Shown here: positions 2,789 through 53,779 of the stretch, one piece after another
Numbering within the stretch: position 1 is the stretch's first letter
Layout: each line of letters opens with the position of its first letter
Origin: an uncultured Bacillota bacterium
Lineage (GTDB): Bacteria > Bacillota_I > Bacilli_A > RF39 > UBA660
NCBI GenBank assembly: GCA_948466255.1
Contig: CAOJZV010000005.1
Span: 1,155 to 65,154 of the forward strand
Reading direction: 5' to 3'
DNA: 64,000 nucleotides
The notes under the pieces: generated by a model
The model's input: only the letters and a program-made list of their open reading frames with translations
What the model was told of the DNA's origin: nothing
The model's database searches: none
Translations under genes and position numbers: made by a program

Positions 2789-3313
2789 CTATAAATACTT
2801 ATCTAATAATTCTTTAACAATCGATTTATATTCTACATCAGTACTTTCCTCAGCTTCAATTAAACATAAAGGAGGAAACAATACACACCACCAATTATCA
2901 CCTTTACCTTCACCTAAAGTAACTAATAAAGATTCATAATATCCTTCTTCATATTTCACACCTTTATATTCCTTCTCAGGAAAATAATTCATTCCAAAAT
3001 TAACATCATAATTTTTATTATATTTTTCCCTTTCTAAAACTTGACCTACATTATTTTTAATAGAATCTAAATTTTCTAAGATAACTTTTCTAGCATCACC
3101 GCTACTTTTTGTATCTTTTAACAAATTATACATAGAAGTTTGAAGTTCATCACGAACTTTACCTTTTACCTTTTGGTCATAGTCAGAATTACTATTAGGC
3201 ACAACCCTAATTCTAATTGCATCTTCTGGAATTTCTATGTTTTTTGCCATTACATCAGAAATAATAAAATAAAAACCAAATATAAATAACAATAAAATAA
3301 TAGTCTTTTTCAT
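2789..3313 (-). CDS. spoIIR: stage II sporulation protein R
   Basis: signal peptide; IRIRVVPNSNSD and GDNWWCVLFPPLC motifs match B. subtilis SpoIIR (IRLRILANSDSD / GANWWCVLFPPLC). Confidence 0.75.
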   Translation of the reverse strand: MKKTIILLLFIFGFYFIISDVMAKNIEIPEDAIRIRVVPNSNSDYDQKVKGKVRDELQTSMYNLLKDTKSSGDARKVILENLDSIKNNVGQVLEREKYNKNYDVNFGMNYFPEKEYKGVKYEEGYYESLLVTLGEGKGDNWWCVLFPPLCLIEAEESTDVEYKSIVKELLDKYL

Positions 3314-3812: not shown

Positions 3813-4567
3813 AATTCGATAACTTCCGTTCTCTCTTTTTGTTTGGCAATCAATAATCTAGGTGCCTGTTTACCACTTTTTTTATACGCCGTCTTATAAG
3901 CTTCAATAGCTTTTTCGGGGCTATTATTTTCCTCACTTAAATGCGCTAAAATAACACTTTTTGTTTTCTTGCCAGTAAATTCAGTTAAATAATAAGCGCA
4001 ATCTTTATTAGATAAATGTCCTTTATCTCCTAAAATTCGTTGTTTTAAATGATAAGGATATTTCCCATTCATAAGCATTTCTATATCATGATTACTTTCT
4101 AAAACATACAAGTCATGATTTTTTAATTTATTATAATTACGCACATGAATATAACCGGTATCCGTCATATACATAAGAGATTTTCCTTCAGATACAAACA
4201 CATAACCATTAGAATCCGCAACATCGTGAGAAGTTTTAACCGGGATAATTTTTAAATCATTAATATCCATATCGCCATTTATATAAACATAATCATCAAT
4301 TAACAGTCCTAATTCTTCATCCATTTTTTCTGTAAGATAAACTATTGGGGCATATTTTTTTAGAAAAACACGCAGACCATTAATATGGTCTGTGTGTGTA
4401 TGGGTTAAGAAAATTCTTTCAATCGATGAAGGCTCAACACCTATTTCTCTTAAACTGTTTTCAACATAACTACAGCTCATACCAATATCGATTAAAGATT
4501 TAGTCCCATTTGTTTCAATATAAGTGCAATTTCCTTTACTGCCACTTGCTAAAACACAAACTTTCAT
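3809..4567 (-). CDS. MBL-fold metallo-hydrolase (YycJ/WalJ-like)
   Basis: HTHTDHINGL metal-binding motif (HxHxDH); 252 aa; translationally coupled to the flanking genes. Confidence 0.75.
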   Translation of the reverse strand: MKVCVLASGSKGNCTYIETNGTKSLIDIGMSCSYVENSLREIGVEPSSIERIFLTHTHTDHINGLRVFLKKYAPIVYLTEKMDEELGLLIDDYVYINGDMDINDLKIIPVKTSHDVADSNGYVFVSEGKSLMYMTDTGYIHVRNYNKLKNHDLYVLESNHDIEMLMNGKYPYHLKQRILGDKGHLSNKDCAYYLTEFTGKKTKSVILAHLSEENNSPEKAIEAYKTAYKKSGKQAPRLLIAKQKERTEVIEL

Positions 4568-6039
4568 TATCTATAACCACCTGGATAAAGAACTGATGGA
4601 TTTATATGATTCCATTTAGAACCTTTCCAAACTTCATAATGAACATGTGGACCAGTACAAGAACCTGTACAACCAACATAACCAATAACTTGTCCACGTG
4701 CTACAGTCTGACCTTTTTTAACAGCAATTCTAGACATATGAGCATAAAGAGTCATATACCCATTATTATGATTAATAACAACGTAATTACCATAACTATA
4801 ATGACGTTCAGCAATCATAACAACCCCATTATTAGTAGCATATATTTTAGAGCCATAACCAGTACCACTTATATCAAGACCAGTATGTAACTCGCGGCCT
4901 CTTCCGACAGGACTATTACGATAAGCATATCCACTGCTCATTCTCCAACCACTATCAGTTGGCCATCCCCAGTTAGTAAGGCTTCCAACACCAGAAACAT
5001 ATTTGCTTCCCTTTAAAATTATTTTATTAACAGATGATTTTAAAACTTGTTTCCCCTGTGGATTTACATAAACTATTTCCCCATTAATCTGTTTTACATT
5101 TTGTGATACTCTAACAAGACCATTTTGACCTTCTTGAATAACTTTTTCATCACCCATTAAAAGTGAACTATCATATTTTTCTTCAGTTTTATATCTACTT
5201 TCAATATCCTCAACCACATAACTTTCTTCAACAACACTTATTTTAGGATTTGTTTCAGCTATTTTAAGTTGTTGCCCTGGATATAATAAATTAGTCCTGC
5301 TAGTTAAAGTATCATTAGCTAAAAGCAGTTCTTCTGGGTTTACTTTATTTTCAAAAGCAACCGTTTCTATAGTATCTCCAGCTTTAACATTATATACGCT
5401 TTCTTTAACTTCATCACCATACATTAAATATTTGCTTAAATCATTAACATCGGTAAATATTTTTTCATCAACTGGAATTTTAGTTTCTTTTACAGTAATA
5501 TCCTCATCAACATAAACATTTTCAATAGTTTGTCCAGTTGTATCAATTTTAGATTGATCATCATCTAAATATTTTTGATAAGCATCTTTACCAACATAAG
5601 TGTCAATCAAATTAGCTACAGCCTGTTTAAAAGTATCTTTTTTCAAAACATTTATTTTTATTGGCTTTTCTTTTTTATCTTCGCTTTTTGGTTTAATTGT
5701 CATTACATAACCATTTATTGTAAAAGAAGAATCTTTATTTATTTTCTTATAAATTTTTGAAACTGGTGTAACATCACCAGAAAAAGTAGTAACTTTCTTT
5801 ACCTGCAATCCTTCAGGAGCATAAACTTTTTCTACTTTATACTTGTTTTTATAGTACTGTCCATTCTTATCAATATAATTATCAAGTTCTTCTTTACTTT
5901 CGATTGTTCCTAAAAGCTTTTTATCTAAAAACACTTGATAATAATTGTTAGGAATTGGAGCTTTTTTAGCTTTAAATCCCAACAAACAAACCCCCGACAA
6001 AATGATTGCAATACCAACCACAATCACTAGTTTTTTCAT
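4567..6039 (-). CDS. M23-family metallopeptidase with N-terminal membrane anchor and LysM/G5-like region
   Basis: C-terminal HTGLDI ... GYVGCTGSCTGPHVHYEV matches the LytM/M23 catalytic signature; N-terminal TM helix. Confidence 0.8.
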   Translation of the reverse strand: MKKLVIVVGIAIILSGVCLLGFKAKKAPIPNNYYQVFLDKKLLGTIESKEELDNYIDKNGQYYKNKYKVEKVYAPEGLQVKKVTTFSGDVTPVSKIYKKINKDSSFTINGYVMTIKPKSEDKKEKPIKINVLKKDTFKQAVANLIDTYVGKDAYQKYLDDDQSKIDTTGQTIENVYVDEDITVKETKIPVDEKIFTDVNDLSKYLMYGDEVKESVYNVKAGDTIETVAFENKVNPEELLLANDTLTSRTNLLYPGQQLKIAETNPKISVVEESYVVEDIESRYKTEEKYDSSLLMGDEKVIQEGQNGLVRVSQNVKQINGEIVYVNPQGKQVLKSSVNKIILKGSKYVSGVGSLTNWGWPTDSGWRMSSGYAYRNSPVGRGRELHTGLDISGTGYGSKIYATNNGVVMIAERHYSYGNYVVINHNNGYMTLYAHMSRIAVKKGQTVARGQVIGYVGCTGSCTGPHVHYEVWKGSKWNHINPSVLYPGGYR

Positions 6040-8961: not shown

Positions 8962-9876
8962 CTATTTTAGTTCTTCTATTTCTTCTTTAGTTAAACCTGT
9001 AACTTTTGTTATTGTTTCAATATCAATGTTTTCTGCAAGCATGTTTTTAGCTATTTCTATCTTTTCTTCTTTTTTGCCTTCAATTTTCCCTTCGATTTTT
9101 CCTTCCTCTTGGGCATTACTAATTTTTTCATACTCTACCAAAGCATCTAGCTTTTCTTTTTCCCATTCATGTAAAACAAATTCATCTTTACTCATTCTTA
9201 TCACATCTCCTATAAACTTATCTAATTCGTTTTCTTCTAAGATGTTTCTTAATATATCATAAATTTCTGTAAATGTCTTGGCTGTTAAAGCAGCTAACCA
9301 TACTGTTTCTTCTTCTCTATCTCCATTATAATATAACTTTCTATATACTTCAAGATATTTTAAAACAATCACAAAATTTTCATGATATACTTCTTTTTTT
9401 GTTATATCATAAGGTACTATTATGTTTTCTTTTCTGCCATAATTTTTCCCTCTTGTATTTATATTTAATTGAAATAAGTATACATCTTTTAATTTAGATA
9501 CTTTTTCCCCTTTTTCTAAAAGTGTTGAAAATAGTTTTGTTTGTAATAAAAAATTTCTTAATTTTACATTTTTAAATTGTTCTGTATTTATTTCTACTGA
9601 TATATGCATATTATCATTTAATATTGCATGCATATCTACCACCTTTTGATACTCTTTATGATTTTCCTTTAAAAGTTCATTTGGCCCAAAAGTCATTTTA
9701 GTATCTTCTGGTAGTTTTTCTAAATGTAAAGACGATATTATTAATCTTTTTAAAGCGTTTTTATTTGATAGAAATATTCCTTTAAAACAAGGATCAAAAA
9801 CAATTGGAATAAGTTTACAAGTTTTATCTAATTCTACTAAATCTTCTCTAGTATAAATAGATTGTGTATCAGTCAT
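8962..9876 (-). mobile_element. Rpn-family recombination-promoting nuclease / PD-(D/E)XK putative transposase
   Basis: N-terminal DPCFKGIF block and C-terminal EGKIEGKIEGKKEEKIEIAKNMLAENIDIETITKVTGLTKEEIEEL tail are typical of the PF12784/TIGR01784 putative-transposase family. Confidence 0.65.
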
Positions 9877-9981
9877 ATAATCACCATCCTTTCATTTGTC
9901 ATGACTGATTAGGAAGGTAAATTTTACCTTCGTATATATCCTACTGTTTTTCTATATCAAATTCCTTCTTAAAAACGAAAA

Positions 9982-10003
9982 AAATTGCAAAAAAATGCAA
10001 TTT
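9982..10003 (-). terminator. Rho-independent terminator (minus strand) after the 146-aa gene
   Basis: inverted repeat AAATTGCA-N6-TGCAATTT followed on the minus-strand transcript by UUUUUCGUUUUU. Confidence 0.5.
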
Positions 10004-10013
10004 CTTTATTTTT

Positions 10014-10454
10014 TTAACTCTCAATTACTTTATATTTAACTTTAGATAAATCTATTTTTACTGATGCAGTTATTGTTCTTGTTTCTCCTGCTTTCATAGG
10101 ATTCCCAATATAACCATGTAAAACAACTATAGAATTACCATTTTTATCTTTCAAATTAATATTTACTTTTTCAATATTAATTTCTTCTTGTGTTGGATTA
10201 GTTACATCCATCGATAAAGTATATTGTTTACCATCTTTAATCAAAGTAGTATTAGTAAAATTTAAGTTGCCAAATGTTTCGTCTTTTATAATACCTTGTT
10301 CTGTAATAGCTTCTTTATAATCAGTTTTTACCTTTTTTGTAGAAGTTTTATTATTATCTTTTATAATAAATAGTACTACAACTACAAAAACTAATATACT
10401 TATTATTAATAAACTTAATATGATTTTCTTATTTTTTAATTTTATTATTTTCAT
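10014..10454 (-). CDS. hypothetical membrane-anchored protein, co-transcribed downstream of the 817-aa surface protein
   Basis: 146 aa; single N-terminal TM helix; RBS GAGGAGAA 7 nt before the ATG; no recognisable motifs. Confidence 0.5.
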   Translation of the reverse strand: MKIIKLKNKKIILSLLIISILVFVVVVLFIIKDNNKTSTKKVKTDYKEAITEQGIIKDETFGNLNFTNTTLIKDGKQYTLSMDVTNPTQEEINIEKVNINLKDKNGNSIVVLHGYIGNPMKAGETRTITASVKIDLSKVKYKVIES

Positions 10455-10586
10455 AAATGTTCTCCTCGTATAATATTATATTGCTTATATTAGGCAAGGG
10501 ATAAAAGTATAACATTATTACCTATATTTAAAATATTCAATTTGTGATTATATTAAGTGTTTCTATAACAAATATCCATTTTAATT

Positions 10587-13040
10587 TTAGCTTCTATTTG
10601 TATAATTATATGTTTTTCCAGTTAATTTAACATAATCTACATCGCAAAGAAGATATTGATAGTTTGAAAGCAACTGTACCCCAATATAATAATTACCAGT
10701 AAGCTTTGAAATATCTAGCTCAAGGGCAGGATTACTGCCTCCAGCAGGTATTGTTTTGGAAGTGTAGTTTCCTTTTTCGTGTACCCATGATGAACGTGAC
10801 GAAACAACCCCCAACATAAGATAAGCTTCCCGTACCCCCTCATGACAATAATGATAGGTAGATATTTTACTATAATCATCTAATGAGTAGCTGCTTGTAC
10901 TTGTTATTTGACCTCTGGCGTTATCTGTTGTCATAGGCTCAAAAAAATAATAATAAAGATTCTCATTGTAATTAATATCCATCCTTGCTCCATCGAACAA
11001 ATTCCCGCTAAATTTGCCGGCACCACTAATTTTATATAATTCAAATATAGTTAAATCATCCTTTTTCCATGTAGGATAAACTGTGGCCTGACTGCAACCT
11101 GTATTTGAAACTTTAAATGACTTAGTACTACTATTTATTGTTTGGCTTGTTGAATTATTACATACTATTGTAGCCCCTTGATAAGTAAACCCACTACTTG
11201 GGGTTGCTGTAAAAGTTATTGTTTCAGTATAAGATGCTAATGTCTTTGATAAACTAATGCTTCCTCCTCTTACTGTTCCTGCTGATAATCCATATTTTAT
11301 AGTTGGTGTATAACTACTACTTACTGTATTTTTTCCATCACTTACTGTTCCAGATAATGTTCCTGAAGCAGTAAATAATACATTTACGGTTGTACTTGTT
11401 ACATTTACTGCTGTTCCACTATCTTTTTTATATGTACATGTATATGTACTTCCACATCCTGATGGATATGTTATTGTTACTGTACTTTTACCTGCTTCTT
11501 GTGTTTCTTTATAAGTTGGTACTGCTATTGCATTTGGCTGTACTGATGTACTTGCTGATGTTGTTGTTTTTCCTATACCTGATGTTACTCTTACCTGTAT
11601 TGGATATGACTTTGTATTATCTAAGTTGTTAAAAGTATATGTCTTATTTGTTCCGTTATTTACCCATGTATTTCCGCCATCATTACTAAACTCATATTTT
11701 GTTATTCCACTTGTTGCGGATGCTGTTGCGACTACAGTTATTGACTTTGTTGTTTTTGATGTAGCAACTGATAATGTTGGAGCGTTTTTATCTATCTTTA
11801 CTTGGGTTGTCGATTCGTTTGATATATTTCCTTCTTTATCTATAGCTCTAAATCTAATTGTTTCATTTCTATTAACAGTATAAGTTATTGTTGTTTGTTC
11901 ATTTGATGTTGTTAGAGCTCTAGTTGTCCAAGCATCATTTTCATACCACTCATATCTATCTATTCCACTTCCTTCATCGGTTGATTCTAAGGTTATTATT
12001 ACATCATTAGATGTCCAATCACCATTTGAACTATTTGTTATTGTTGGTGCTGATGGTTTTATATCATCTACAGCTTTGGCAGTTAACGTTATATTTTGAT
12101 TTATGTTTATTTTATCTCCTGCATTTCCTACTTTTGTTTCACCATTATACCAGCCTTGTATTGTATAGCCAGGTGCTGTTATAGATGGTAATGTTAATTC
12201 ACAGTTTGTATCATTATTATATAAATAACATGTTTCATTTTCTTTTCCAATACTGCTTATTCCATTATCTTTTGTATAACTTACTGATAAGCCTTTTCTA
12301 AATATGGCATATAGTGTTGTATTTTGTGATGGCATATTTAATGTTTCTAATCCTTCTTTAGCATCTTTATTTGTATTCCAACCTACAAATTCATATCCTT
12401 CTTTATCAGCTGTTTCACTTAAATCTATACTTTCATTTTCTGGTGAATAATAACTTTCATTTGGTCCATATGTCCCACCATTTGTTTGATAGTCAAATGT
12501 TAATAAATAATCATTTGTTGGAACTATTGTTCCTCCTTCTGCTTGAGCATAATTTAAATCTATACTTGTTTCTGCACTTCCTTCAGTTATAGTTCCTGTA
12601 AATTCTGGATTATATTCTATTTTTACTTTTATTATTTGTTCATTTCCCTTTAATAGTTTTTCTCCCTTGGTATATCCTGATATAGTTATTAATAGAGCTT
12701 CATTTTGGGTTTTTATATTTTTATTTATATTATCTAATTTTGCATCTATTGTTCCATTATTTTTAACTGTTACATTGTATTCTATAGAATCGCCTTTTTG
12801 ATATAGATTTGCTTCCATATAAGCTGTTAAATCTGTCCATATTGGGGCTTTTGCTTCTTCTGCATCTCCTGTTTGATTTGCTTTTGTTACATTTATTATT
12901 TTTATATCCCAATTACTTGTTATACTTGTTGTCCCATTTATTTTTAGAATACTTTGAAAAGTGGCATATCCTACTGACATAATTAATAATAAACCACATA
13001 AAATTCCGATGATTACTGTATTTTTTCTTCTTTCTCTCAT
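10587..13040 (-). CDS. large secreted/surface protein with TasA/camelysin-like (SipW-cognate-like) signal, Listeria-Bacteroides-type repeats and Ig-like domains
   Basis: likely start at MRERRKN (GGAGAA RBS); basic N-terminus, hydrophobic helix, then VGYATFQS (compare TasA GGGTWAAFND, CalY GGGTFAYFSD); two GY(E/T)FxGW repeat motifs; S/T/N-rich Ig-like repeats; no LPXTG. Confidence 0.55.
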   Translation of the reverse strand: MRERRKNTVIIGILCGLLLIMSVGYATFQSILKINGTTSITSNWDIKIINVTKANQTGDAEEAKAPIWTDLTAYMEANLYQKGDSIEYNVTVKNNGTIDAKLDNINKNIKTQNEALLITISGYTKGEKLLKGNEQIIKVKIEYNPEFTGTITEGSAETSIDLNYAQAEGGTIVPTNDYLLTFDYQTNGGTYGPNESYYSPENESIDLSETADKEGYEFVGWNTNKDAKEGLETLNMPSQNTTLYAIFRKGLSVSYTKDNGISSIGKENETCYLYNNDTNCELTLPSITAPGYTIQGWYNGETKVGNAGDKININQNITLTAKAVDDIKPSAPTITNSSNGDWTSNDVIITLESTDEGSGIDRYEWYENDAWTTRALTTSNEQTTITYTVNRNETIRFRAIDKEGNISNESTTQVKIDKNAPTLSVATSKTTKSITVVATASATSGITKYEFSNDGGNTWVNNGTNKTYTFNNLDNTKSYPIQVRVTSGIGKTTTSASTSVQPNAIAVPTYKETQEAGKSTVTITYPSGCGSTYTCTYKKDSGTAVNVTSTTVNVLFTASGTLSGTVSDGKNTVSSSYTPTIKYGLSAGTVRGGSISLSKTLASYTETITFTATPSSGFTYQGATIVCNNSTSQTINSSTKSFKVSNTGCSQATVYPTWKKDDLTIFELYKISGAGKFSGNLFDGARMDINYNENLYYYFFEPMTTDNARGQITSTSSYSLDDYSKISTYHYCHEGVREAYLMLGVVSSRSSWVHEKGNYTSKTIPAGGSNPALELDISKLTGNYYIGVQLLSNYQYLLCDVDYVKLTGKTYNYTNRS

Positions 13041-13115
13041 ATATTTCTCCATTGCTTTTATTTTATAAACTTTAAAATCTGTGATATATTTTGCTAACAT
13101 TACATACACCAAACC

Positions 13116-21119: not shown

Positions 21120-21184
21120 AGTAACTCTCCTTTTACCGAATTATAACATATTTTAAAGTATAGAAAAAGAGTTCATAACGAACT

Positions 21185-23107
21185 CTATTGTTTATCAATT
21201 TTGAAATTAGCCTGATAGCTATTACCTAAATCAATTTCATCAACATCAATTTTATAACCTAATCTTTCGATTTGATCAGCACAATTTCTAATTAAACGAA
21301 TTACTTCAATAAAATTATTATTTGTTGATTCAATAGCAGAAGAATTATTAACATTACTATTCATAACATCTGGAGTTGGGGCTTCTAAAATATCTGAATC
21401 TGGGATGTTGGTCATAACTGGCTCTGGAACTGCTGGAACAACAGATTCTGGAGTTGGTTGAATAGTCTGAGTTACAGGTTCTACCATTTGTATTGGTTCT
21501 GCCGGAACTTCTTCTATCAATGGTTGTTCTGGAATATTAAATGCCTCTGGAGTAATAGGTGCTTGATTTTGAACTAATTCACTATAAAGTGGTGATTGTT
21601 GTCCTTCGCTTTCATTATTTATCAAAGTTTTTGGCTGAATCGTATCCGTTCTTGGCATAACAATTGGTTCTACCACAGACTCCATTGGTTGCTCCTGTGG
21701 AATTGATGATACATTTTCTTGTACAGGTTGAATTACAGGTTCTGGATTTATTGTTTCCACATTAGGAGAAACTATAGATTCTTCTGGTAATTGTGAATTC
21801 ATTGCATTTTTTACTGCTTCCGCAATACTAACTCCCTCTGTTTCCGATAATGTTTCTACTTCAGGTGCTTCATTAGATGTTATTGGTTGTTCTGAAACAA
21901 TATTTTCTACAGGTTTATCTAATTGCTCAGAATTTGGTATAGACTGAGTTACAGTTTCTGTATTAGTTGGTTGTAAGTTAGAAGGTAATTGATTAAATAT
22001 ACTATCAAAACTTGCTTCATCGCTTGCTGGAACACTTGGTGTTTCTACTTTTTGTTTTTCTTCTGGTTGAACAATTCCACTAAAATTAACAAATTTATTT
22101 TGATCATCATTTACCAAAGGAATTTCACTTTCAGTTGATGGTTCTATTTCAGAAATAATTGGTTCTACTGGATTAGTAGGCATCTCAAAAACATTATTGT
22201 CATTTTTCATAAGTTCAGAAATATCTTTATTTTCTTCTGGTACATTAATATCTTGAGCTTCTCTCATAATTTTATCTATATCCATACCCTTTTCATCCTT
22301 TCTCATTAAGTTTTCTTCTATTTCTTTTGGTAAACTAACTCTAATAATTTCATGACTACCTCTAGGAACAGCCTTTTTTGGCTTATTTATTGGTTCATCA
22401 GCCCCAAATAATTCTTCAACTGGTTCTGATTTGATAAAATTTGGTTTCTTTATTTCTTTTTCAGTGATTGTTTCCTTTTCTGGAATAATCACTTCTTTAT
22501 CTTTTTCTAACACATCTCTAATTGCTTCATCTGTTTTCTTAACAGTTAGTCTTTCATTTATAATCCTATTAAGCATTTCTATTTGTTTGTTTCTATCATT
22601 TAACCTTAATAAAGATCTTGCATGTCTTTCTGAAATTTTTCCATTCAAAAGAGCATACTGAACTTGGTCATCCAAATTAAGTAATCTTACTTTATTAGCA
22701 ATTGTAGATTGCGTTTTTCCTAATTTTTCCGCTAATTGAACTTGTGTAATATAACCCATATCTAATATTCTTTTATATGATACAGCTTCTTCAATAGGAG
22801 TTAAATTTTGTCTTTGTACATTTTCAAGTAAAGCTATTTCTTCACTTTCTTTATCATTTAAGTTTATAATAATAGCAGGGATAGTACTTTTATTAGCAAT
22901 TTTACTAGCTTTATATCTTCTTTCACCAGCAATTATTTCATATTTATCACCAATTTGACGAACAACGATTGGTTGAATTACACCATATTTACGAATAGAT
23001 TCAGCAAGTTCATTTAATTTTGTTTCATCAAAATGAATACGTGGTTGAAATCTATTTGGTAAAACATCTTCAATATTTAGTGTATTTAAATTGCCATATT
23101 CATACAT
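21185..23107 (-). CDS. parB: ParB/Spo0J-family chromosome partitioning protein with about 390-aa low-complexity P/E/Q/S/V-rich linker
   Basis: N-terminal ParB box GERRYKAS and HTH; 640 aa (typical ParB about 280 aa); sits at the conserved rsmG-adjacent position; no ParA/Soj gene adjacent. Confidence 0.8.
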   Translation of the reverse strand: MYEYGNLNTLNIEDVLPNRFQPRIHFDETKLNELAESIRKYGVIQPIVVRQIGDKYEIIAGERRYKASKIANKSTIPAIIINLNDKESEEIALLENVQRQNLTPIEEAVSYKRILDMGYITQVQLAEKLGKTQSTIANKVRLLNLDDQVQYALLNGKISERHARSLLRLNDRNKQIEMLNRIINERLTVKKTDEAIRDVLEKDKEVIIPEKETITEKEIKKPNFIKSEPVEELFGADEPINKPKKAVPRGSHEIIRVSLPKEIEENLMRKDEKGMDIDKIMREAQDINVPEENKDISELMKNDNNVFEMPTNPVEPIISEIEPSTESEIPLVNDDQNKFVNFSGIVQPEEKQKVETPSVPASDEASFDSIFNQLPSNLQPTNTETVTQSIPNSEQLDKPVENIVSEQPITSNEAPEVETLSETEGVSIAEAVKNAMNSQLPEESIVSPNVETINPEPVIQPVQENVSSIPQEQPMESVVEPIVMPRTDTIQPKTLINNESEGQQSPLYSELVQNQAPITPEAFNIPEQPLIEEVPAEPIQMVEPVTQTIQPTPESVVPAVPEPVMTNIPDSDILEAPTPDVMNSNVNNSSAIESTNNNFIEVIRLIRNCADQIERLGYKIDVDEIDLGNSYQANFKIDKQ

Positions 23108-23180
23108 AAAGTACCCCTCCCTTCTATTCTTTTATAATTATCATACTATTTTTTGGGAAATATTTCAACAATTTTTGTGA

Positions 23181-27252: not shown

Positions 27253-27789
27253 TTATTTTTTTATTTTATTCAAATACCTTTTAAGACCAATATATTTAAG
27301 TATTTCTTTTCCACTTCCTAAAACACCTAAACTAACAAATTTATCTGCAAATGTTACTACCCAGCTTTCAGGATACTTAGGCGGATGGATATTAAGAGGA
27401 AACATATGTCTTAAAATAATATCTGATACTCTTGCATTTACAAATTCTGGGAAATGTTCAATAGAGTTATCCAATGCTTCCCCGGCATGAACAAATCCAT
27501 GTTGTTTAAAAAAGGAATCCTTTTTTTCTAAATTTTCTTGCCATGGCTTATAATAAAAATCATGAAGTAATCCACCAATCGCTGCATCACGACTATAAAG
27601 ACCTAATTTACGACAAATTCTATAAGCCAAATAAGATACTTCTATTGAGTGCTCATAAACAGAACAATCCTCATGATGTTTAAAATTTTTCCTTTTTTGA
27701 AATTCAGGATCTTCTATTATACGCCTAACAATTTCATAATATTTTCTATTTTTTAAAGCTCTATTAACTTTTTTTTGCATCGCCCTCAT
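27253..27789 (-). CDS. HD-domain phosphohydrolase
   Basis: H...HD motifs (HSIEVSY, GLLHDFYYKPW); 178 aa. Confidence 0.55.
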   Translation of the reverse strand: MRAMQKKVNRALKNRKYYEIVRRIIEDPEFQKRKNFKHHEDCSVYEHSIEVSYLAYRICRKLGLYSRDAAIGGLLHDFYYKPWQENLEKKDSFFKQHGFVHAGEALDNSIEHFPEFVNARVSDIILRHMFPLNIHPPKYPESWVVTFADKFVSLGVLGSGKEILKYIGLKRYLNKIKK

Positions 27790-32929: not shown

Positions 32930-33050
32930 AAGTTCTTTTTTTTTTACAAAAAATTTAATTTTACGACAAATATTGATAATTTTTGACAAACAAAATGTGT
33001 ATAAGAGAAGCATCAGATTTTTTTATCTGATTAGAAACAGGGGGAAATAT

Positions 33051-33503
33051 ATGAATGAATACGAAATTACAAGTGAAACATGTGCTTTAATATCTGTAAG
33101 TGAAAATGCAACTGAAGTAATAGAATTAGGTAAGAAATTTATTATTGAAGATAAACTAACAGATATATTAAAAAGAAGCTGTGAATTTTATGGATGTACA
33201 TTAGAAGGAAGAATAAAAGGAAGCCAAATGCAATTAGGAATGAAATATAAATTGCCAATTATCATTGAAAATACAAAAGAAATTATCTTTTTTCCAACTT
33301 CATCACCTAGATTAGAAAATTGTAGTTGGATTTCTTTAAAAAATATCAAAAATTATGAAGAAAATAGATTTGGATCAATCATAGAATTTATAGATGATAA
33401 TAAATTAATTTTACCAATTTCACTAGAATCACTTGAAAATCAGATATTTAGAGCTACAAAATTAATGTTAATTTCACGTAAACGCAGTAAAATGGAAAAA
33501 TAG
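33051..33503 (+). CDS. comK: ComK-like competence transcription factor
   Basis: likely start MNEYEI (RBS AGGGGGAAATAT); SCEFYGCTLEGRIKG, KLPIIIENTKEIIFFPTSSPRLENCSWIS and ILPISLESLENQIFRATKL align with B. subtilis ComK (SCRFFGSSYAGRKAG, KPPIMVDPSNQIFLFPTLSSTRPQCGWIS, ELPISYNSFENQVYRTAWL). Confidence 0.6.
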   Translation: MNEYEITSETCALISVSENATEVIELGKKFIIEDKLTDILKRSCEFYGCTLEGRIKGSQMQLGMKYKLPIIIENTKEIIFFPTSSPRLENCSWISLKNIKNYEENRFGSIIEFIDDNKLILPISLESLENQIFRATKLMLISRKRSKMEK

Positions 33504-39175: not shown

Positions 39176-39191
39176 TGTTTCACGTGGAACA
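39176..39191. promoter_or_regulatory. parS site 1 (TGTTTCACGTGGAACA); may double as the gyrA terminator hairpin
   Basis: 15/16 match to the palindromic consensus TGTTTCACGTGAAACA; identical to the B. subtilis parS TGTTCCACGTGAAACA on the opposite strand; followed by TTTTT. Confidence 0.7.
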
Positions 39192-39229
39192 TTGCTTTTT
39201 AGTTATAAAAAAATACAAAAGAAGATTAT

Positions 39230-39245
39230 AGTTTCACGTGAAACA
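39230..39245. promoter_or_regulatory. parS site 2 (AGTTTCACGTGAAACA)
   Basis: 15/16 match to the parS consensus; perfect 14-bp palindromic core GTTTCACGTGAAAC. Confidence 0.7.
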
Positions 39246-39399
39246 TTAGAAATATAAATTTAAATAATATATTAATTTATATAAATTAACAAAAAGGTAA
39301 AACCAATAATAAAATAAAATGTAGAAAATATATAAAGATAAAACTAAATTCTCTTTTAAAAGAAAAAATAGTGAAAAATAAATAAAAAGATATAAACCA

Positions 39400-39415
39400 T
39401 GTTTCACGTGAAACT
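39400..39415. promoter_or_regulatory. parS site 3 (TGTTTCACGTGAAACT)
   Basis: 15/16 match to the parS consensus. Confidence 0.7.
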
Positions 39416-39473
39416 ATACATGTATTAATTAAAAGTATGGAAAAAACCTAGATAAAAAATAATATATAGATAA

Positions 39474-39489
39474 TGTTTCACGTGAAACA
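39474..39489. promoter_or_regulatory. parS site 4 (TGTTTCACGTGAAACA, perfect; extended palindrome TAATGTTTCACGTGAAACATTA)
   Basis: 16/16 match to the parS consensus. Confidence 0.75.
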
Positions 39490-39535
39490 TTATAATAGTT
39501 TGCCTTTTTTTATAAAATCATATATCATTATTAAT

Positions 39536-39608
39536 GGCACAACATTTATGTTCGAACCAGGTCAGAATCGGAAGATAGCAGCCTTAAGAATCTCTAAATG
39601 TGTGTGCC
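39536..39608 (+). ncRNA. ffs: small SRP RNA (4.5S/scRNA-type, about 73 nt)
   Basis: CCAGGUCAGAAUCGGAAGAUAGCAGCC matches the conserved domain IV of bacterial SRP RNA (CCAGGUCAGGUCCGGAAGGAAGCAGCC); closing helix GGCACA/UGUGCC plus ACAUUUA/UAAAUGU; followed by UUUUAUU; same neighbourhood (tadA, dnaX) as B. subtilis scr. Confidence 0.7.
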
Positions 39609-39627
39609 TTTTATTATAGGTGATAAT

Positions 39628-40032
39628 ATGGATAAATATATGGAAATAGCTTTTAAAGAAGCAAAAAAAGCATTAAAAACAGATGATGTTCCAGTTGGGG
39701 CAGTAATTGTGGAAAATGGAAAGATAATTGCAAAAGCACACAATACAAGAGAAAAAAAGAAACTTGTAACTAGACATGCTGAAATAAATGCTGTGGAAAA
39801 AGCGTGTAAAAAGAAGAAAAATTGGTATTTAAATGATTGTGAATTATATGTTACATTAGAACCATGTAAAATGTGTATGGGGGCCATTGAGCAAGCACGA
39901 ATTAAAACTATTATATATGCAGCTCCAAGAGATAAAATCGATAATTTAAAAATGCCAGAAGTGAAACAAGGGAAAGGTGTGGAAAACTCACAAGAACTCC
40001 TTAAATCCTTTTTTAAAAATAAAAGAAAATAA
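39628..40032 (+). CDS. tadA: tRNA-specific adenosine deaminase
   Basis: likely start MDKYMEIAFKEAKK (RBS AGGTGA); zinc-binding HAE...PCxxC motifs (HAEINAV, PCKMC). Confidence 0.85.
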   Translation: MDKYMEIAFKEAKKALKTDDVPVGAVIVENGKIIAKAHNTREKKKLVTRHAEINAVEKACKKKKNWYLNDCELYVTLEPCKMCMGAIEQARIKTIIYAAPRDKIDNLKMPEVKQGKGVENSQELLKSFFKNKRK

Positions 40033-52521: not shown

Positions 52522-53043
52522 ATGAAAGCAACAGGTGTCGTAAGAAGAATAGATGATTTAGGTAGAATAGTTATACCAAAAGAAATAAGAAAAACTTTAA
52601 GATTAAAAAATGGTGAAAATTTAGAAATATTTGTAGATGAAAACGAAAACATTATTTTAAAGAAATATAGTCAAATAGATAAATTAAAAGAATTTGCTGG
52701 TCAAATTACCGAAGCTATAAATAATGTTACCAAAAAATCAGTTTTCATTATAAATACAGATTCTTTTGTATCCATAAGCGGAAAGAAGAAAGAATATCTT
52801 AATAAACCAATCTCAAATGAATTAATTGAAATGATAAATAATCGTCACGAAATAAAAAATCAATATCAAGTTCAAATGACAGAAGAAAAAATAGAAAACG
52901 AAAATATAGCATTTTGTCCAATAATAATAAACGGAGATGCGATAGGAGCAATAATGATGATGTCAAAGGATGAAGTAACAGAAACTGATTTTCAAACACT
53001 AAAAATAATTTCTAGCTTTTTAACCAAACATATTGAAGATTAA
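52522..53043 (+). CDS. spoVT: stage V sporulation protein T (AbrB-N + GAF-like)
   Basis: MKATGVVRRIDDLGRIVIPKEIRKTLRLKNGENLEIFVD is near-identical to B. subtilis SpoVT; 173 aa; conserved mfd-spoVT linkage. Confidence 0.85.
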   Translation: MKATGVVRRIDDLGRIVIPKEIRKTLRLKNGENLEIFVDENENIILKKYSQIDKLKEFAGQITEAINNVTKKSVFIINTDSFVSISGKKKEYLNKPISNELIEMINNRHEIKNQYQVQMTEEKIENENIAFCPIIINGDAIGAIMMMSKDEVTETDFQTLKIISSFLTKHIED

Positions 53044-53061: not shown

Positions 53062-53099
53062 TAACAGGAAAAAAGCGAAGAAAGAGAGAAAAATAGGTG

Positions 53100-53287
53100 A
53101 CTTTATAGAGAGTTTATGGTTGGTGGAAATAAACAAGGTGACTATTGGAAATGGCTCTAGAGCTTCTAAACCAAATAATTAAGTTTAGACGTAAGCATGC
53201 GTTAAATGTTTAAGGTAAGTATAATGCTTACAAATTAAGGTGGTACCACGTTCATCACGTCCTTATTTTTAAGGACGTTTTTTTATT
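53100..53287 (+). promoter_or_regulatory. T-box riboswitch leader (probable Met specifier AUG) with intrinsic terminator, preceding dut-DHH-metG
   Basis: AAUUAAGGUGGUACCACG (53233-53250) matches the T-box consensus AAUUAGGGUGGNACCGCG. Antiterminator: UAAGG[UGGUACC]ACG...CGUCCUUA. Terminator ACGUCCUUA-uuuuu-AAGGACGU plus U-tract at 53257-53287. Stem I has AGAGAG and AUG at 53151-53153 in specifier position. Confidence 0.7.
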
Positions 53288-53302: not shown

Positions 53303-53779
53303 ATGCGTAAATTTGAAAAAATAAGTTTAAGCCAATTTATAAAAGATACAGGATTAACAGAAAAAGAATATAATGAATATAAATTACCAAAAAGAAGTAC
53401 AAAATATAGTGCAGGATATGATTTTGCCGCCTTAACAGATTTTACAATTAACCCTAACGAAATAAAGTTAATTCCAACAGGAATAAAAGCCGACATGAAT
53501 AATAATGAAGTTCTAATGATATATATTAGAAGTAGTTTAGGATTTAAATTTAATTTGCGAATGTGCAACGGGACAGGAATTATTGATAAAGATTATTACA
53601 ACAATAGGGATAACGAAGGTCATATATTTGTAAAATTACAAAACGAAGGAGATCAACCAAAAGAATTTAAAAAAGGAGAAAATATTGTTCAAGGAATCTT
53701 CTTAAACTATTTAACAGTTGAAGGCGAAACAGAAATAACAAAAGAAAGGATAGGTGGAGTTGGAAGTACCAACGAATAA
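53303..53779 (+). CDS. dut: dUTP diphosphatase
   Basis: dUTPase motifs SAGYDF, GIIDKDYY, RIGGVGSTNE; RBS AAAAGGAGGT. Confidence 0.8.
   Translation: MRKFEKISLSQFIKDTGLTEKEYNEYKLPKRSTKYSAGYDFAALTDFTINPNEIKLIPTGIKADMNNNEVLMIYIRSSLGFKFNLRMCNGTGIIDKDYYNNRDNEGHIFVKLQNEGDQPKEFKKGENIVQGIFLNYLTVEGETEITKERIGGVGSTNE

What the first reader, a model, noticed from the sequence alone, without database searches (positions are those of the whole stretch)
21185..23107. Orphan ParB (no ParA/Soj) with a roughly 390-residue disordered P/E/Q/S/V-rich insert
The only partition protein in the conserved mnmE-mnmG-rsmG-(noc/soj/spo0J) slot is a single 640-aa ParB. Its N-terminus has the ParB box GERRYKAS and an HTH, and its C-terminus ends in a short folded-looking tail. 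The middle is a very long low-complexity linker rich in PE/PV/EP dipeptides. No ParA ATPase gene is adjacent. The usual neighbour is replaced by an RsmB-like methyltransferase and uvrB. Together with the parS array, this suggests a ParA-independent ParB-parS-SMC origin organisation. A ParB with an intrinsically disordered spacer of this length is unusual.
Basis: seen in the sequence. Interest (0 to 1): 0.6.

Follow-up and report, generated by a model that had tools for sequence, protein, structure and literature searches.

The report
Noc-like protein with giant disordered linker
The 640-residue gene is real, but it descends from the nucleoid-occlusion protein Noc (a ParB paralog) and is probably not the chromosome's lone ParB. 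It carries a roughly 390-residue acidic disordered linker and belongs to an apparently undescribed family found in small-genome gut Bacilli.

Summary
ORF 21185-23107 (-) encodes 640 aa: a ParB CTPase domain, an HTH domain, a ~390-aa predicted-disordered acidic insert and a ~43-aa folded tail. No ParA gene lies anywhere in the 64-kb window.

The interpretation does not hold. The protein belongs to the Noc lineage, not the Spo0J/ParB lineage:
- It sits directly after rsmG, in the noc slot.
- Its DNA-specificity residues are Q-K-N-R (Noc is QKKR; ParB is RxxG).
- It lacks the ParA-binding motif.
- Its C-terminal domain matches Noc profiles and not Spo0J profiles.
- NBS-like sites are enriched about 70-fold in related loci.
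- In related genomes, 411-539-aa versions sit in rsmG-noc-soj-spo0J next to canonical Soj and Spo0J.

The parS array (4 sites here, up to 12 in relatives) therefore needs a separate ParB. In relatives, soj-spo0J lies between whiA and rplI together with ychF-rpsF-ssb-rpsR. In this window a transposase-associated segment replaces that whole block, so the block was probably moved. I could not test this genome-wide.

What is unusual is a Noc without its N-terminal membrane helix. In its place the family has a 270-443-aa acidic disordered linker carrying six conserved short motifs. About 80 clusters at 50% identity carry this module. I rate it a new variant of a known kind.

The parts
21185..23107 (-). 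Noc-lineage ParB-family gene, 640 aa (stop codon 21185-21187)
   Evidence: ORF and translation. Best NCBIfam match is TIGR04285 nucleoid_noc at 267 bits, against 170 bits for parB_part. Best solved structures are Noc 7ng0/7nfu at 210 bits, against 163 bits for B. subtilis Spo0J 6sdk. Foldseek top hit is 7nfu.
22814..23092 (-). ParB/Srx-type CTPase N-terminal domain (residues 6-98). It carries PNRFQPR, GERR (R64 = B. subtilis Noc R89) and ENVQR (N96 = Noc N121).
   Evidence: Pfam PF02195. These residues are invariant in the family. Their role is described in PMC8429893. pLDDT is 68-85.
22511..22810 (-). HTH DNA-binding domain (residues 100-199) with specificity residues Q133, K139, N144, R161
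   Evidence: Pfam PF17762. Alignment to Noc and Spo0J structures. The QK[N/S]R signature holds across the family. Meaning of the residues comes from PMC7383237.
21323..22489 (-). Predicted intrinsically disordered acidic linker (residues 207-595)
   Evidence: pLDDT is below 50 for almost the whole segment. Net charge is -50, with 12% P and 15% E. No Pfam, PDB or fold match. Length is 270-443 aa in 32 relatives and always net negative.
22334..22423 (-). Conserved island A (residues 229-258): EPVEELF followed by the basic stretch KKAVPRGSHEIIRV
   Evidence: 52% mean pairwise identity. It is the only net-positive amphipathic stretch in the insert.
22205..22294 (-). Conserved island B (residues 272-301): GMDIDKIMREAQDIN...DISELMK, with a predicted short helix at 277-284
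   Evidence: 68% identity. M275, D276, D278, I280, E283, A284, D286, I287, D295 and M300 are invariant in 32 sequences. The helix appears in the AF2 model.
22079..22102 (-). Conserved island C (residues 336-343): QNKFVNF
   Evidence: 59% identity, with F339 invariant.
21983..22015 (-). Conserved island D (residues 365-375): SFDSIFNQxP
   Evidence: 74% identity, with F367 and F371 invariant.
21785..21832 (-). Conserved island E (residues 426-441): SIAEAVKNAMNS, with a predicted short helix at 428-436
   Evidence: 41% identity. The helix appears in the AF2 model.
21380..21412 (-). Conserved island F (residues 566-576): NIPDSDILE
   Evidence: 56% identity, with P569 invariant.
21188..21316 (-). 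Noc-type C-terminal (dimerisation) domain (residues 598-640): one helix plus a two-stranded hairpin
   Evidence: pLDDT is about 74. 69% identity within the family. hhalign against nine canonical Noc C-terminal domains gives probability 93%, E 3e-7, over 46 columns. Against Spo0J C-terminal domains the probability is 0.2%.
23140..23168 (-). Promoter-like site (TTGAAA, 17 nt, TATGAT). The 16-mer TATTTCCCAAAAAATA (23147-23162), a perfect NBS half-site TATTTCCC, fills the spacer.
   Evidence: TATTTCCC is conserved at this place in most family loci and is duplicated as a direct repeat in the divergent members L027 and L031-L037.
21168..21186 (-). Terminator-like hairpin directly after the stop codon
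47911..47926 (.). NBS-like palindrome TATTTCCCGGGAAAAT inside mfd; candidate binding site for this protein
   Evidence: In 734 kb of related loci there are 25 sites within 2 mismatches of NBS, against 0.36 expected. A perfect NBS occurs in relative L088.
39176..39489 (.). Array of four consensus parS sites between gyrA and the SRP RNA gene. Context only: predicted NOT to be bound by this protein, so it implies a separate Spo0J-type ParB.
   Evidence: Relatives carry 5-12 parS sites in the same spacer.
8962..13112 (-). Replaced synteny slot between whiA and the DHH-family gene/rplI. It holds a PDDEXK_2 transposase, a 146-aa orphan and an 841-aa Flg_new surface protein. Relatives carry soj-spo0J-mscS-abgT-ychF-rpsF-ssb-rpsR here.
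   Evidence: Window annotation. Relatives L130/L140 and others. None of these genes is in the window.

Best explanation
The gene encodes a Noc-lineage ParB paralog, not the partition ParB/Spo0J.

Shown here:
- It has an intact ParB CTPase domain.
- Its HTH carries the NBS-type specificity residues.
- It has a Noc-type C-terminal dimerisation domain.
- It occupies the rsmG-noc slot.
- It has no ParA-binding motif.

Inferred mechanism:
- Dimers nucleate on NBS-like palindromes (TATTTCCCGGGAAATA and variants) scattered on the chromosome. They also bind a TATTTCCC half-site operator inside the gene's own promoter.
- They then bind CTP and close into sliding clamps, as Noc and ParB do.

The family differs from Noc in two ways:
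- The N-terminal membrane-targeting helix is absent.
- The usual linker of a few tens of residues between the DNA-binding domain and the dimerisation domain has grown into a 270-443-residue acidic, proline-rich disordered tether. This tether carries six conserved short motifs.

I infer that the tether makes a very wide, negatively charged clamp, and that the motifs recruit partner proteins. Those partners, rather than direct membrane binding, would deliver the output, whether nucleoid occlusion or another origin-proximal function.

The parS array is served by a separate Spo0J. That Spo0J is probably encoded with soj on a block that was moved out of this region.
For: Family assignment.
- NCBIfam Noc model scores 267 bits against 170 for generic ParB.
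- Noc structures are the best PDB sequence hits and the best fold hits.
- In a neighbour-joining tree the family is sister to QKKR Nocs and separate from R..G Spo0Js.

Specificity.
- The signature is Q-K-N-R. The rules come from PMC7383237.
- QKNR is also found in canonical-length Nocs that sit next to soj-spo0J in higher-GC Firmicutes.

ParA-binding motif.
- Present in 0 of 44 family members and in 28 of 32 Spo0Js.

C-terminal domain.
- hhalign gives 93% probability against Noc and 0.2% against Spo0J.

Synteny.
- The order rsmG, long Noc-like, Soj, Spo0J occurs in L044 (411 aa), L090 (421 aa), L091 (466 aa) and L092 (539 aa).
- It also occurs in more than 10 metagenome loci.

DNA sites.
- NBS-like sites number 25 against 0.36 expected.
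- There is a perfect NBS in L088.
- TATTTCCC is conserved in the promoter spacer.

CTPase residues.
- R64 and N96 are invariant.

Disorder and motifs.
-.

Restriction of the insert.
- The insert plus C-terminal domain is found in only 80 clusters at 50% identity among 1.84 billion representatives. All have the same architecture or are fragments.
Against: - The score against TIGR04285 (267 bits) is below its curated cut-off of 315, because the model's C-terminal 54 positions do not align.
- Overall identity of the N-terminal 200 residues does not separate Noc from Spo0J (45.7% against 44.6%). Home-made HMMs score 237 against 236 bits.
- Position 184 is N, not K. The QKNR combination is not reported individually in the paper or in its held supplements.
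- Noc's defining membrane helix is missing, and NocNdelta10 is non-functional in B. subtilis (PMC8429893). So 'works like Noc' is not established.
- Most NBS-like sites are imperfect, and several are orthologous copies rather than independent events.
- No binding, CTP or partner data exist.
- A second ParB was not actually found in this genome.
Confidence: 0.75

Rival explanations
1. First reader's model. This is the only ParB-family protein of the genome. It binds the parS array and organises the origin, for example by loading SMC, without any ParA.
For: - It is the only ParB-family gene, and there is no ParA, in 64 kb centred on oriC.
- There is none within 10 kb of the gene in about 40 related loci.
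- The parS array is conserved and even expanded in genomes that carry the long protein.
- ParA-less ParB systems are known from streptococci (own knowledge).
Against: - Q at 173 and R at 201 are the two NBS-reading residues, while all ParBs keep R173 and G201 (PMC7383237).
- The recognition-helix signature is identical to that of the long Noc-likes that coexist with a bona fide Spo0J (RxxG, with the LGRGL motif) in L044 and L090-L092.
- The C-terminal domain is Noc-type.
- NBS-like sites are enriched.
- Relatives have soj-spo0J in the whiA/rplI slot. In this genome that whole slot, including the essential rpsF-ssb-rpsR, has been displaced, which favours relocation.
Confidence: 0.1
2. The protein is mainly a transcriptional regulator in the manner of KorB. 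A ParB-fold CTP switch represses its own promoter, and perhaps a few others, through TATTTCCC operators. It would then have no chromosome-wide role.
For: - A perfect NBS half-site fills the spacer between the -35 and -10 elements of its own promoter.
- The half-site is conserved across the family and is duplicated in divergent members.
- The gene is monocistronic, with its own terminator.
Against: - The promoter carries only a half-site, and the whole leader is conserved, so the conservation is not specific to that half-site.
- Full NBS-like palindromes occur inside distant genes such as mfd and rsmI, as for B. subtilis Noc.
- Autoregulation and a chromosome-wide role are not exclusive.
Confidence: 0.1
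3. The long insert is a functionally neutral, runaway expansion of the flexible linker. It would be low-complexity drift in AT-rich, reduced genomes, and the protein would otherwise behave as an ordinary Noc-type clamp.
For: - Spacer segments are only 16-28% identical, and insert length varies from 270 to 443 aa.
- Several relatives show recent internal duplications.
- The L044/L092 sub-clade has an insert of similar composition but without the same motifs.
Against: - Six islands with invariant residues persist across 32 diverse sequences.
- Net negative charge and proline content are kept in every member.
- The reading frame stays open in all full-length members recovered (about 120 listed homologues, about 40 genome loci and 80 clusters at 50% identity). 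Some members are truncated at contig ends.
- No tandem DNA repeat underlies the region in this genome.
Confidence: 0.15

Closest known systems
Nucleoid occlusion protein Noc of Bacillus subtilis and Geobacillus thermoleovorans (TIGR04285; PDB 7nfu, 7ng0, 7ol9, 6y93)
   Same: - ParB CTPase domain with the CTP-critical Arg and Asn.
- HTH with Q173, K179 and R201.
- Noc-type C-terminal domain.
- No ParA-binding motif.
- Gene directly after rsmG.
- NBS-like sites in the genome.
- 45-52% identity over the first 200 residues.
   Different: - It lacks the first ~25 residues: the membrane-targeting helix alpha1, which is needed for nucleoid occlusion, and helix alpha2.
- Position 184 is N, not K.
- The linker between the DNA-binding and dimerisation domains is ~390 aa, acidic, disordered and carries conserved motifs.
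- It scores below the curated family cut-off (267 against 315 bits).
Chromosomal ParB/Spo0J (TIGR00180; PDB 6sdk, 1vz0, 4umk, 6t1f)
   Same: - Same fold.
- Same order of domains.
- Same CTP motifs.
- 41-44% identity over the N-terminal 200 residues.
   Different: - No LG[KR]GL ParA-binding motif.
- Q and R at the two invariant ParB positions R173 and G201.
- C-terminal domain unrelated at profile level (probability 0.2%).
- Not in a parAB operon.
- In related genomes it coexists with a true Spo0J.
ParA-less chromosomal ParB of streptococci (own knowledge, not tested here)
   Same: A ParB-family gene near the origin with no adjacent parA.
   Different: Those proteins are canonical-length ParBs that bind parS. 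This protein has Noc-type specificity residues and a Noc-type C-terminal domain.
KorB of plasmid RK2 (PDB 8qa8, 8qa9, 1r71)
   Same: - ParB-fold CTP switch that acts at promoters.
- Structural match, E about 1e-11.
- Possible self-operator in this gene's promoter.
   Different: - 27-28% identity.
- Different C-terminal domain.
- Plasmid context.
- No long disordered linker of this kind.

Membership tests
Noc (nucleoid occlusion protein) | ParB/Srx CTPase N-terminal domain with the CTP-binding Arg (B. subtilis R89) and Asn (N121) | tested here: met
   PF02195, E 1e-31. R64 and N96 align to R89 and N121 and are invariant in 32 relatives.
Noc (nucleoid occlusion protein) | NBS-type specificity residues Q173, K179, K184, R201 | tested here: met
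   The signature is Q133, K139, N144, R161: three of four match, including both base-reading residues and one permissive lysine. The exact QKNR combination has no published measurement that I could find.
Noc (nucleoid occlusion protein) | N-terminal amphipathic membrane-targeting helix (about 10 aa) plus helix alpha2 | tested here: not met
   - Only 16 residues precede PNRFQPR. The offset is 15-18 in 42 of 44 family members.
- No start codon lies further upstream in frame.
- The N-terminus has a hydrophobic moment of 0.27, against 0.64 for the Oceanobacillus Noc control.
Noc (nucleoid occlusion protein) | Noc-type C-terminal domain | tested here: met
   hhalign of the family C-terminal profile against nine canonical Noc C-terminal domains gives probability 93%, E 3e-7, over 46 columns. 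hmmscan of the tail alone against TIGR04285 gave no hit.
Noc (nucleoid occlusion protein) | Gene position rsmG-noc(-soj-spo0J) | tested here: met
   The gene sits directly after rsmG here and in all related loci. The full rsmG-noc-soj-spo0J order occurs in L044, L091, L092, L093-L097, L102, L103, L106, L110 and L123.
Noc (nucleoid occlusion protein) | NBS sites dispersed on the chromosome | tested here: met
   - One site within 2 mismatches in the window (47911).
- 25 sites against 0.36 expected in 734 kb of related loci.
- A perfect NBS in L088.
- The whole-chromosome distribution was not testable.
Noc (nucleoid occlusion protein) | Curated NCBIfam TIGR04285 score cut-off (315 bits) | tested here: not met
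   267 bits. Only profile positions 3-201 of 255 are matched.
Noc (nucleoid occlusion protein) | CTP-dependent membrane binding and inhibition of division over the nucleoid | not testable with these tools
   This needs liposome co-sedimentation and genetics.
Chromosomal ParB/Spo0J | ParA-binding motif [LFI]G[KR]G[LFI] near the N-terminus | tested here: not met
   Absent here and in 0 of 44 family members. Present in 28 of 32 Spo0Js from the fetched loci. The motif definition comes from PMC12704722.
Chromosomal ParB/Spo0J | parS-specific residues R173 and G201 (invariant in ParB) | tested here: not met
   The residues here are Q133 and R161.
Chromosomal ParB/Spo0J | Spo0J-type C-terminal domain | tested here: not met
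   hhalign probability 0.2%. No PF23552 hit.
Chromosomal ParB/Spo0J | Encoded in a parAB (soj-spo0J) operon | tested here: not met
   There is no ParA in the 64-kb window. The gene is monocistronic.
Chromosomal ParB/Spo0J | Generic ParB/RepB/Spo0J domain model TIGR00180 | tested here: met
   170 bits against a cut-off of 58. This model also matches Noc, so it does not discriminate.
Chromosomal ParB/Spo0J | Binds the genome's parS sites | not testable with these tools
   parS sites exist, but which protein binds them cannot be computed. The specificity residues argue against this protein.

The most novel reading that the evidence does not exclude
A whole clade of small-genome gut Bacilli has rebuilt Noc. 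In this reading the CTP-gated DNA clamp no longer touches the membrane itself. Instead it carries a several-hundred-residue polyanionic disordered tether with six conserved docking motifs. The tether would recruit division or chromosome-organisation proteins, or act as an entropic or condensate-forming brush. This would be a mechanistically distinct form of nucleoid occlusion or origin organisation. It would operate alongside an unusually dense centromere of 4-12 tandem parS sites served by a separate Spo0J.
Probability: 0.3. Interest if true: 0.65.

Novelty: new variant of a known kind. Interest (0 to 1): 0.45.

Why it matters
Annotation. Automated annotation, and order-level surveys that count TIGR00180 hits, would call this protein 'ParB'. 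Such counts cannot separate Noc from Spo0J. In PMC12704722 Dataset S1, 100 of 102 RF39 species are scored parB-positive. That table does not say which proteins were counted, and I did not place these MAGs in RF39, so the relevance to this clade is a suggestion only.

Biology. Noc's membrane helix is essential for its known mechanism. A large natural family of Noc-lineage proteins lacks that helix and has instead gained a conserved-motif-bearing acidic disordered linker. This offers a test of which parts of the ParB/Noc CTP clamp are separable from the membrane output. It also gives a set of short linear motifs whose partners could reveal how division and chromosome organisation are coupled in these uncultured gut bacteria.

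Tried and rejected
1. Separating Noc from Spo0J by overall similarity of the first 200 residues. Home-made HMMs (237 against 236 bits) and mean identity (45.7% against 44.6%) do not discriminate. I relied instead on signature residues, the C-terminal domain, the ParA-binding motif, synteny and tree topology.

2. hmmscan of the C-terminal 72 residues against NCBIfam at E up to 10 gave no hit. A profile-profile comparison was needed.

3. Looking up QKNR in the deep-mutational-scan data of PMC7383237. It is not in the held supplements.

4. Finding a Spo0J in the closed relatives by the contig-length 'fingerprint'. I searched with the L044 Spo0J and looked for hits whose longest contig was 1,544,357, 1,520,450 or 1,336,693 bp. 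The 120 listed hits were saturated by the L044 species group, so the result is inconclusive.

5. PMC12704722 Dataset S1. It counts TIGR00180 hits, which do not separate Noc from Spo0J.

6. Tandem repeats as the origin of the insert. None were found in this gene, although some relatives show protein-level duplications.

7. A known fold or family for the insert. There is no Pfam, PDB-sequence or Foldseek match beyond residue ~205.

8. A relocated membrane-targeting helix inside the insert. The only net-positive amphipathic stretch is residues 239-257. The rest is strongly acidic, so there is no convincing candidate.

9. A pseudogene or frameshift artefact. This is rejected because the frame is open in all full-length relatives recovered and the promoter, RBS and terminator are intact.
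Full report
**1. The observation**

- The ORF at 21185-23107 (minus strand) is 640 aa.
- It has a strong RBS, a sigma-70-like promoter (TTGAAA, 17 nt, TATGAT) and a terminator-like hairpin right after the stop codon. It therefore looks like a single-gene unit.
- Pfam finds ParB_N (residues 6-98) and HTH_ParB (100-199), and nothing in the remaining 440 residues.
- AlphaFold2, run on a 32-sequence family alignment, folds residues 1-205 (pLDDT 70-93).
- The model leaves 207-595 almost entirely below pLDDT 50 and folds 599-639 into a helix plus hairpin at pLDDT about 74.
- The insert is 15% E, 12% P, 10% I, 9% V and 9% S, with net charge -50 and no hydrophobic segment.
- No ParA/MinD-type Walker A motif occurs in any frame of the 64-kb window.
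- phmmer with a Soj and a Spo0J from a relative finds only this ORF.
- The neighbours are rsmG on one side and an RsmB/F-like methyltransferase plus uvrB on the other.
- Four parS sites (0-1 mismatch) lie at 39176-39489, between gyrA and the SRP RNA gene.

**2. The setting**

- The window is about 27% GC. GC skew switches at about 30 kb, next to dnaA.
- Exact and close copies of the protein come from gut metagenome assemblies labelled uncultured Tenericutes or Bacilli, Candidatus Coprosoma and Acholeplasma sp. CAG:878.
- Closed relatives have genomes of 1.3-1.5 Mb.
- The window also holds murA, an M23/LysM peptidase, spoIIR, spoVT and comK. These are therefore probably walled Bacilli, not mollicutes.

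**3. A family, not a one-off**

- A homology search returns over a hundred full-length relatives of 513-700 aa.
- A species-level genome scan gives about 40 loci in which the gene always follows rsmG.
- The N-terminal 200 residues are 80% identical on average, and the C-terminal 42 residues 69%.
- The insert is 270-443 aa long, always net negative (-9 to -55) and 9-19% proline.
- Six islands in the insert are 41-74% identical: EPVEELF/RAVPxGSHEIIRV, GMDIDKIMxEAQDIN..DISxLMK, NKFVNF, SFDSIFNQxP, SIAEAVxxAMNS and NIPDxDILE. The spacers between them are 16-28% identical.
- A full HMMER pass of insert plus tail over 1.84 billion representatives finds only 80 clusters (27 at E up to 1e-10). All have the same architecture or are fragments.
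- The insert has no match in Pfam, in PDB sequences or by fold.

**4. Noc lineage, not Spo0J**

a. The best curated model is TIGR04285 (Noc) at 267 bits, against 170 for the generic ParB model. The Noc score is still below that model's cut-off of 315, because the model's C-terminal part is unmatched.

b. The best solved structures, by sequence and by fold, are Geobacillus and B. subtilis Noc at 45-52% identity. Spo0J/ParB structures follow at 41-44%.

c. Specificity residues.
   - Jalal et al. 2020 showed that four residues set specificity. ParB is R173-T179-A184-G201, with R173 and G201 invariant in all ParBs. Noc is Q-K-K-R.
   - They also showed that Q173 reads A1 and R201 reads C6 of the NBS, provided a lysine sits at 179 or 184 (PMC7383237).
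   - The query has Q133-K139-N144-R161, and the family keeps Q..R.
   - QKNR also occurs in ordinary-length Nocs that sit next to soj-spo0J in higher-GC Firmicutes.

d. The ParA-binding motif [LFI]G[KR]G[LFI] is absent from all 44 family members and from 9 canonical Nocs. It is present in 28 of 32 Spo0Js.

e. The C-terminal profile matches canonical Noc C-terminal domains (hhalign 93%, E 3e-7, 46 columns) and not Spo0J C-terminal domains (0.2%).

f. A neighbour-joining tree of the N-terminal and HTH region puts the family as sister to QKKR Nocs, apart from all Spo0Js.

g. Co-occurrence, which is the most direct evidence.
   - In L044 the order is rsmG, (RNase R), Noc-like 411 aa, Soj, Spo0J.
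   - In L090, L091 and L092 the Noc-like protein is 421, 466 and 539 aa and is followed by Soj and Spo0J.
   - The 539-aa protein has QKNR, an acidic insert rich in P, E, Q and V, and the same tail.
   - Its neighbour is a standard Spo0J with LGRGL and R..G.
   - A metagenome scan adds many more such trios, with Noc-likes of 415-532 aa.

A caveat: crude similarity of the first 200 residues does not separate the two paralogs.

**5. DNA sites**

- NBS-like 16-mers (up to 2 mismatches to TATTTCCCGGGAAATA) number 25 in 734 kb of family loci. Shuffles give 0.36 expected, with a maximum of 3 in 100 shuffles.
- Fourteen of the 25 are one conserved promoter site, and some of the other eleven are orthologous copies.
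- The window has one such site, inside mfd at 47911. Relative L088 has a perfect NBS.
- The 16-mer TATTTCCCAAAAAATA, a perfect NBS half-site, fills the spacer between the -35 and -10 elements of the gene's own promoter. It is conserved across the family and duplicated as a direct repeat in divergent members. This suggests autoregulation, which is an inference.

**6. The parS array and the missing soj-spo0J**

- The gyrA-SRP RNA spacer carries 5, 5, 12 and 11 parS sites in four relatives that also encode the long protein. A parS-binding protein is therefore under selection in this clade.
- The long protein has the same recognition signature as its orthologs that coexist with Spo0J. I therefore infer that it is not the parS binder.
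- The likely home of soj-spo0J comes from relatives. In L130/L140 (contigs of 608 and 364 kb) the order is uvrB-uvrA-holin-lgt-trxB-whiA-soj-spo0J-mscS-abgT-x-ychF-rpsF-ssb-rpsR-rplI-dnaB-M23-MBL. L114, L124 and L163 are similar.
- The window has uvrB-x-holin-lgt-trxB-cofD-whiA. It then carries an HTH gene, an 841-aa Flg_new surface protein, a 146-aa orphan and a PDDEXK_2 transposase. After these come DHH-rplI-dnaB-M23-MBL-rlmH.
- None of soj, spo0J, ychF, rpsF, ssb or rpsR is in the window.
- rpsF, ssb and rpsR are essential, so the block must sit elsewhere in the genome. soj-spo0J probably travelled with it. This is an inference, at roughly 0.8 probability, and I could not test it because only 10-kb flanks of public contigs can be read.

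**7. How it most likely works**

Shown:
- An intact CTPase domain, with R64 and N96 equal to Noc R89 and N121. Mutating those residues abolishes CTP binding or hydrolysis and spreading (PMC8429893).
- An NBS-type HTH.
- A Noc-type dimerisation tail.

Inferred:
- Nucleation at NBS-like sites, CTP-dependent clamp closure and sliding.

Different from Noc:
- The protein starts at about Geobacillus Noc residue 22-30. It therefore lacks helices alpha1 and alpha2.
- B. subtilis Noc without its first 10 residues cannot bind membrane or complement.
- The insert offers no convincing replacement helix. Its only basic amphipathic stretch is residues 239-257, and everything else is acidic.

The output is therefore probably not direct membrane tethering. 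My best guess is that the polyanionic tether widens the clamp and presents the six motifs to partner proteins. An entropic-brush or condensate role is an alternative. Neither can be tested here.

**8. Novelty and verdict**

- I found no description of long-linker Noc proteins. Full-text searches gave nothing relevant. The 2025 survey of ParB-fold diversity mentions Noc only as having the canonical architecture.
- The finding is a new variant of a known kind.
- Interest is moderate. The result corrects an annotation trap. It also exposes a natural Noc family that has swapped its membrane helix for a motif-bearing disordered tether, next to an unusually dense parS array.

Noticed in passing
window 39176-39489; L086 9480-9863; L087 8800-9850; L088 9649-9843; L089 8877-9848: The parS array sits in the gyrA-SRP RNA spacer. 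It is conserved in relatives and expanded to 5-12 mostly perfect consensus sites within about 1 kb. This is an unusually dense chromosomal centromere for a Firmicute.
   Followed up: partly
L087 11583 and 11625; L089 11583, 11625 and 11667: NBS-like 16-mers (TATTTCCCA[A/G]GAAATA) are repeated at exactly 42-bp spacing inside the dnaX coding region. They could be a coding repeat or a binding array.
   Followed up: no
window 8962-13112: A PDDEXK_2 transposase, a 146-aa orphan and an 841-aa Flg_new surface protein occupy the slot between whiA and the DHH-family gene/rplI. Relatives carry soj-spo0J-mscS-abgT-ychF-rpsF-ssb-rpsR there, so this looks like a rearrangement scar.
   Followed up: yes
window 2789-3313, 52522-53043, 32973-33503, 796-2058, 4567-6039: spoIIR, spoVT, comK, murA and an M23/LysM/G5 peptidase occur in MAGs labelled 'Tenericutes', and relatives also have bofA. 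The organism is probably walled and may sporulate.
   Followed up: no
L003 10001-12073 (P0039 and about 40 near-identical 690-aa proteins): These variants carry an internal tandem duplication of the end of the HTH domain plus the first linker motifs: ISERHARSLLR...MDIDKI occurs twice.
   Followed up: no
L027, L031, L033 (gene start about 10001); L031 9820-9835: One sub-clade has the signature QTNR, with no lysine at 179 or 184. That combination was non-functional in the ParB-to-Noc series. The same sub-clade has a perfect palindrome TATTTCCTAGGAAATA about 180 bp upstream of the gene.
   Followed up: no
window 39526-39622 and 39598-40032: The SRP RNA (RF00169) overlaps the first 25 bases of the longest tadA ORF. 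Most relatives' tadA is 134 aa, so the true start is probably at 39628.
   Followed up: partly
window 53069-53267: A T-box leader (RF00230, 127 bits) lies immediately upstream of the dUTPase-family ORF (53303-53779). A DHHA1-domain ORF and metS follow on the same strand.
   Followed up: no
window 27253-27789: An HD-domain gene is inserted between jag/khpB and mnmE in the otherwise classical rnpA-yidC-jag-mnmE-mnmG-rsmG string. The insertion is conserved in relatives (L001, L003).
   Followed up: no
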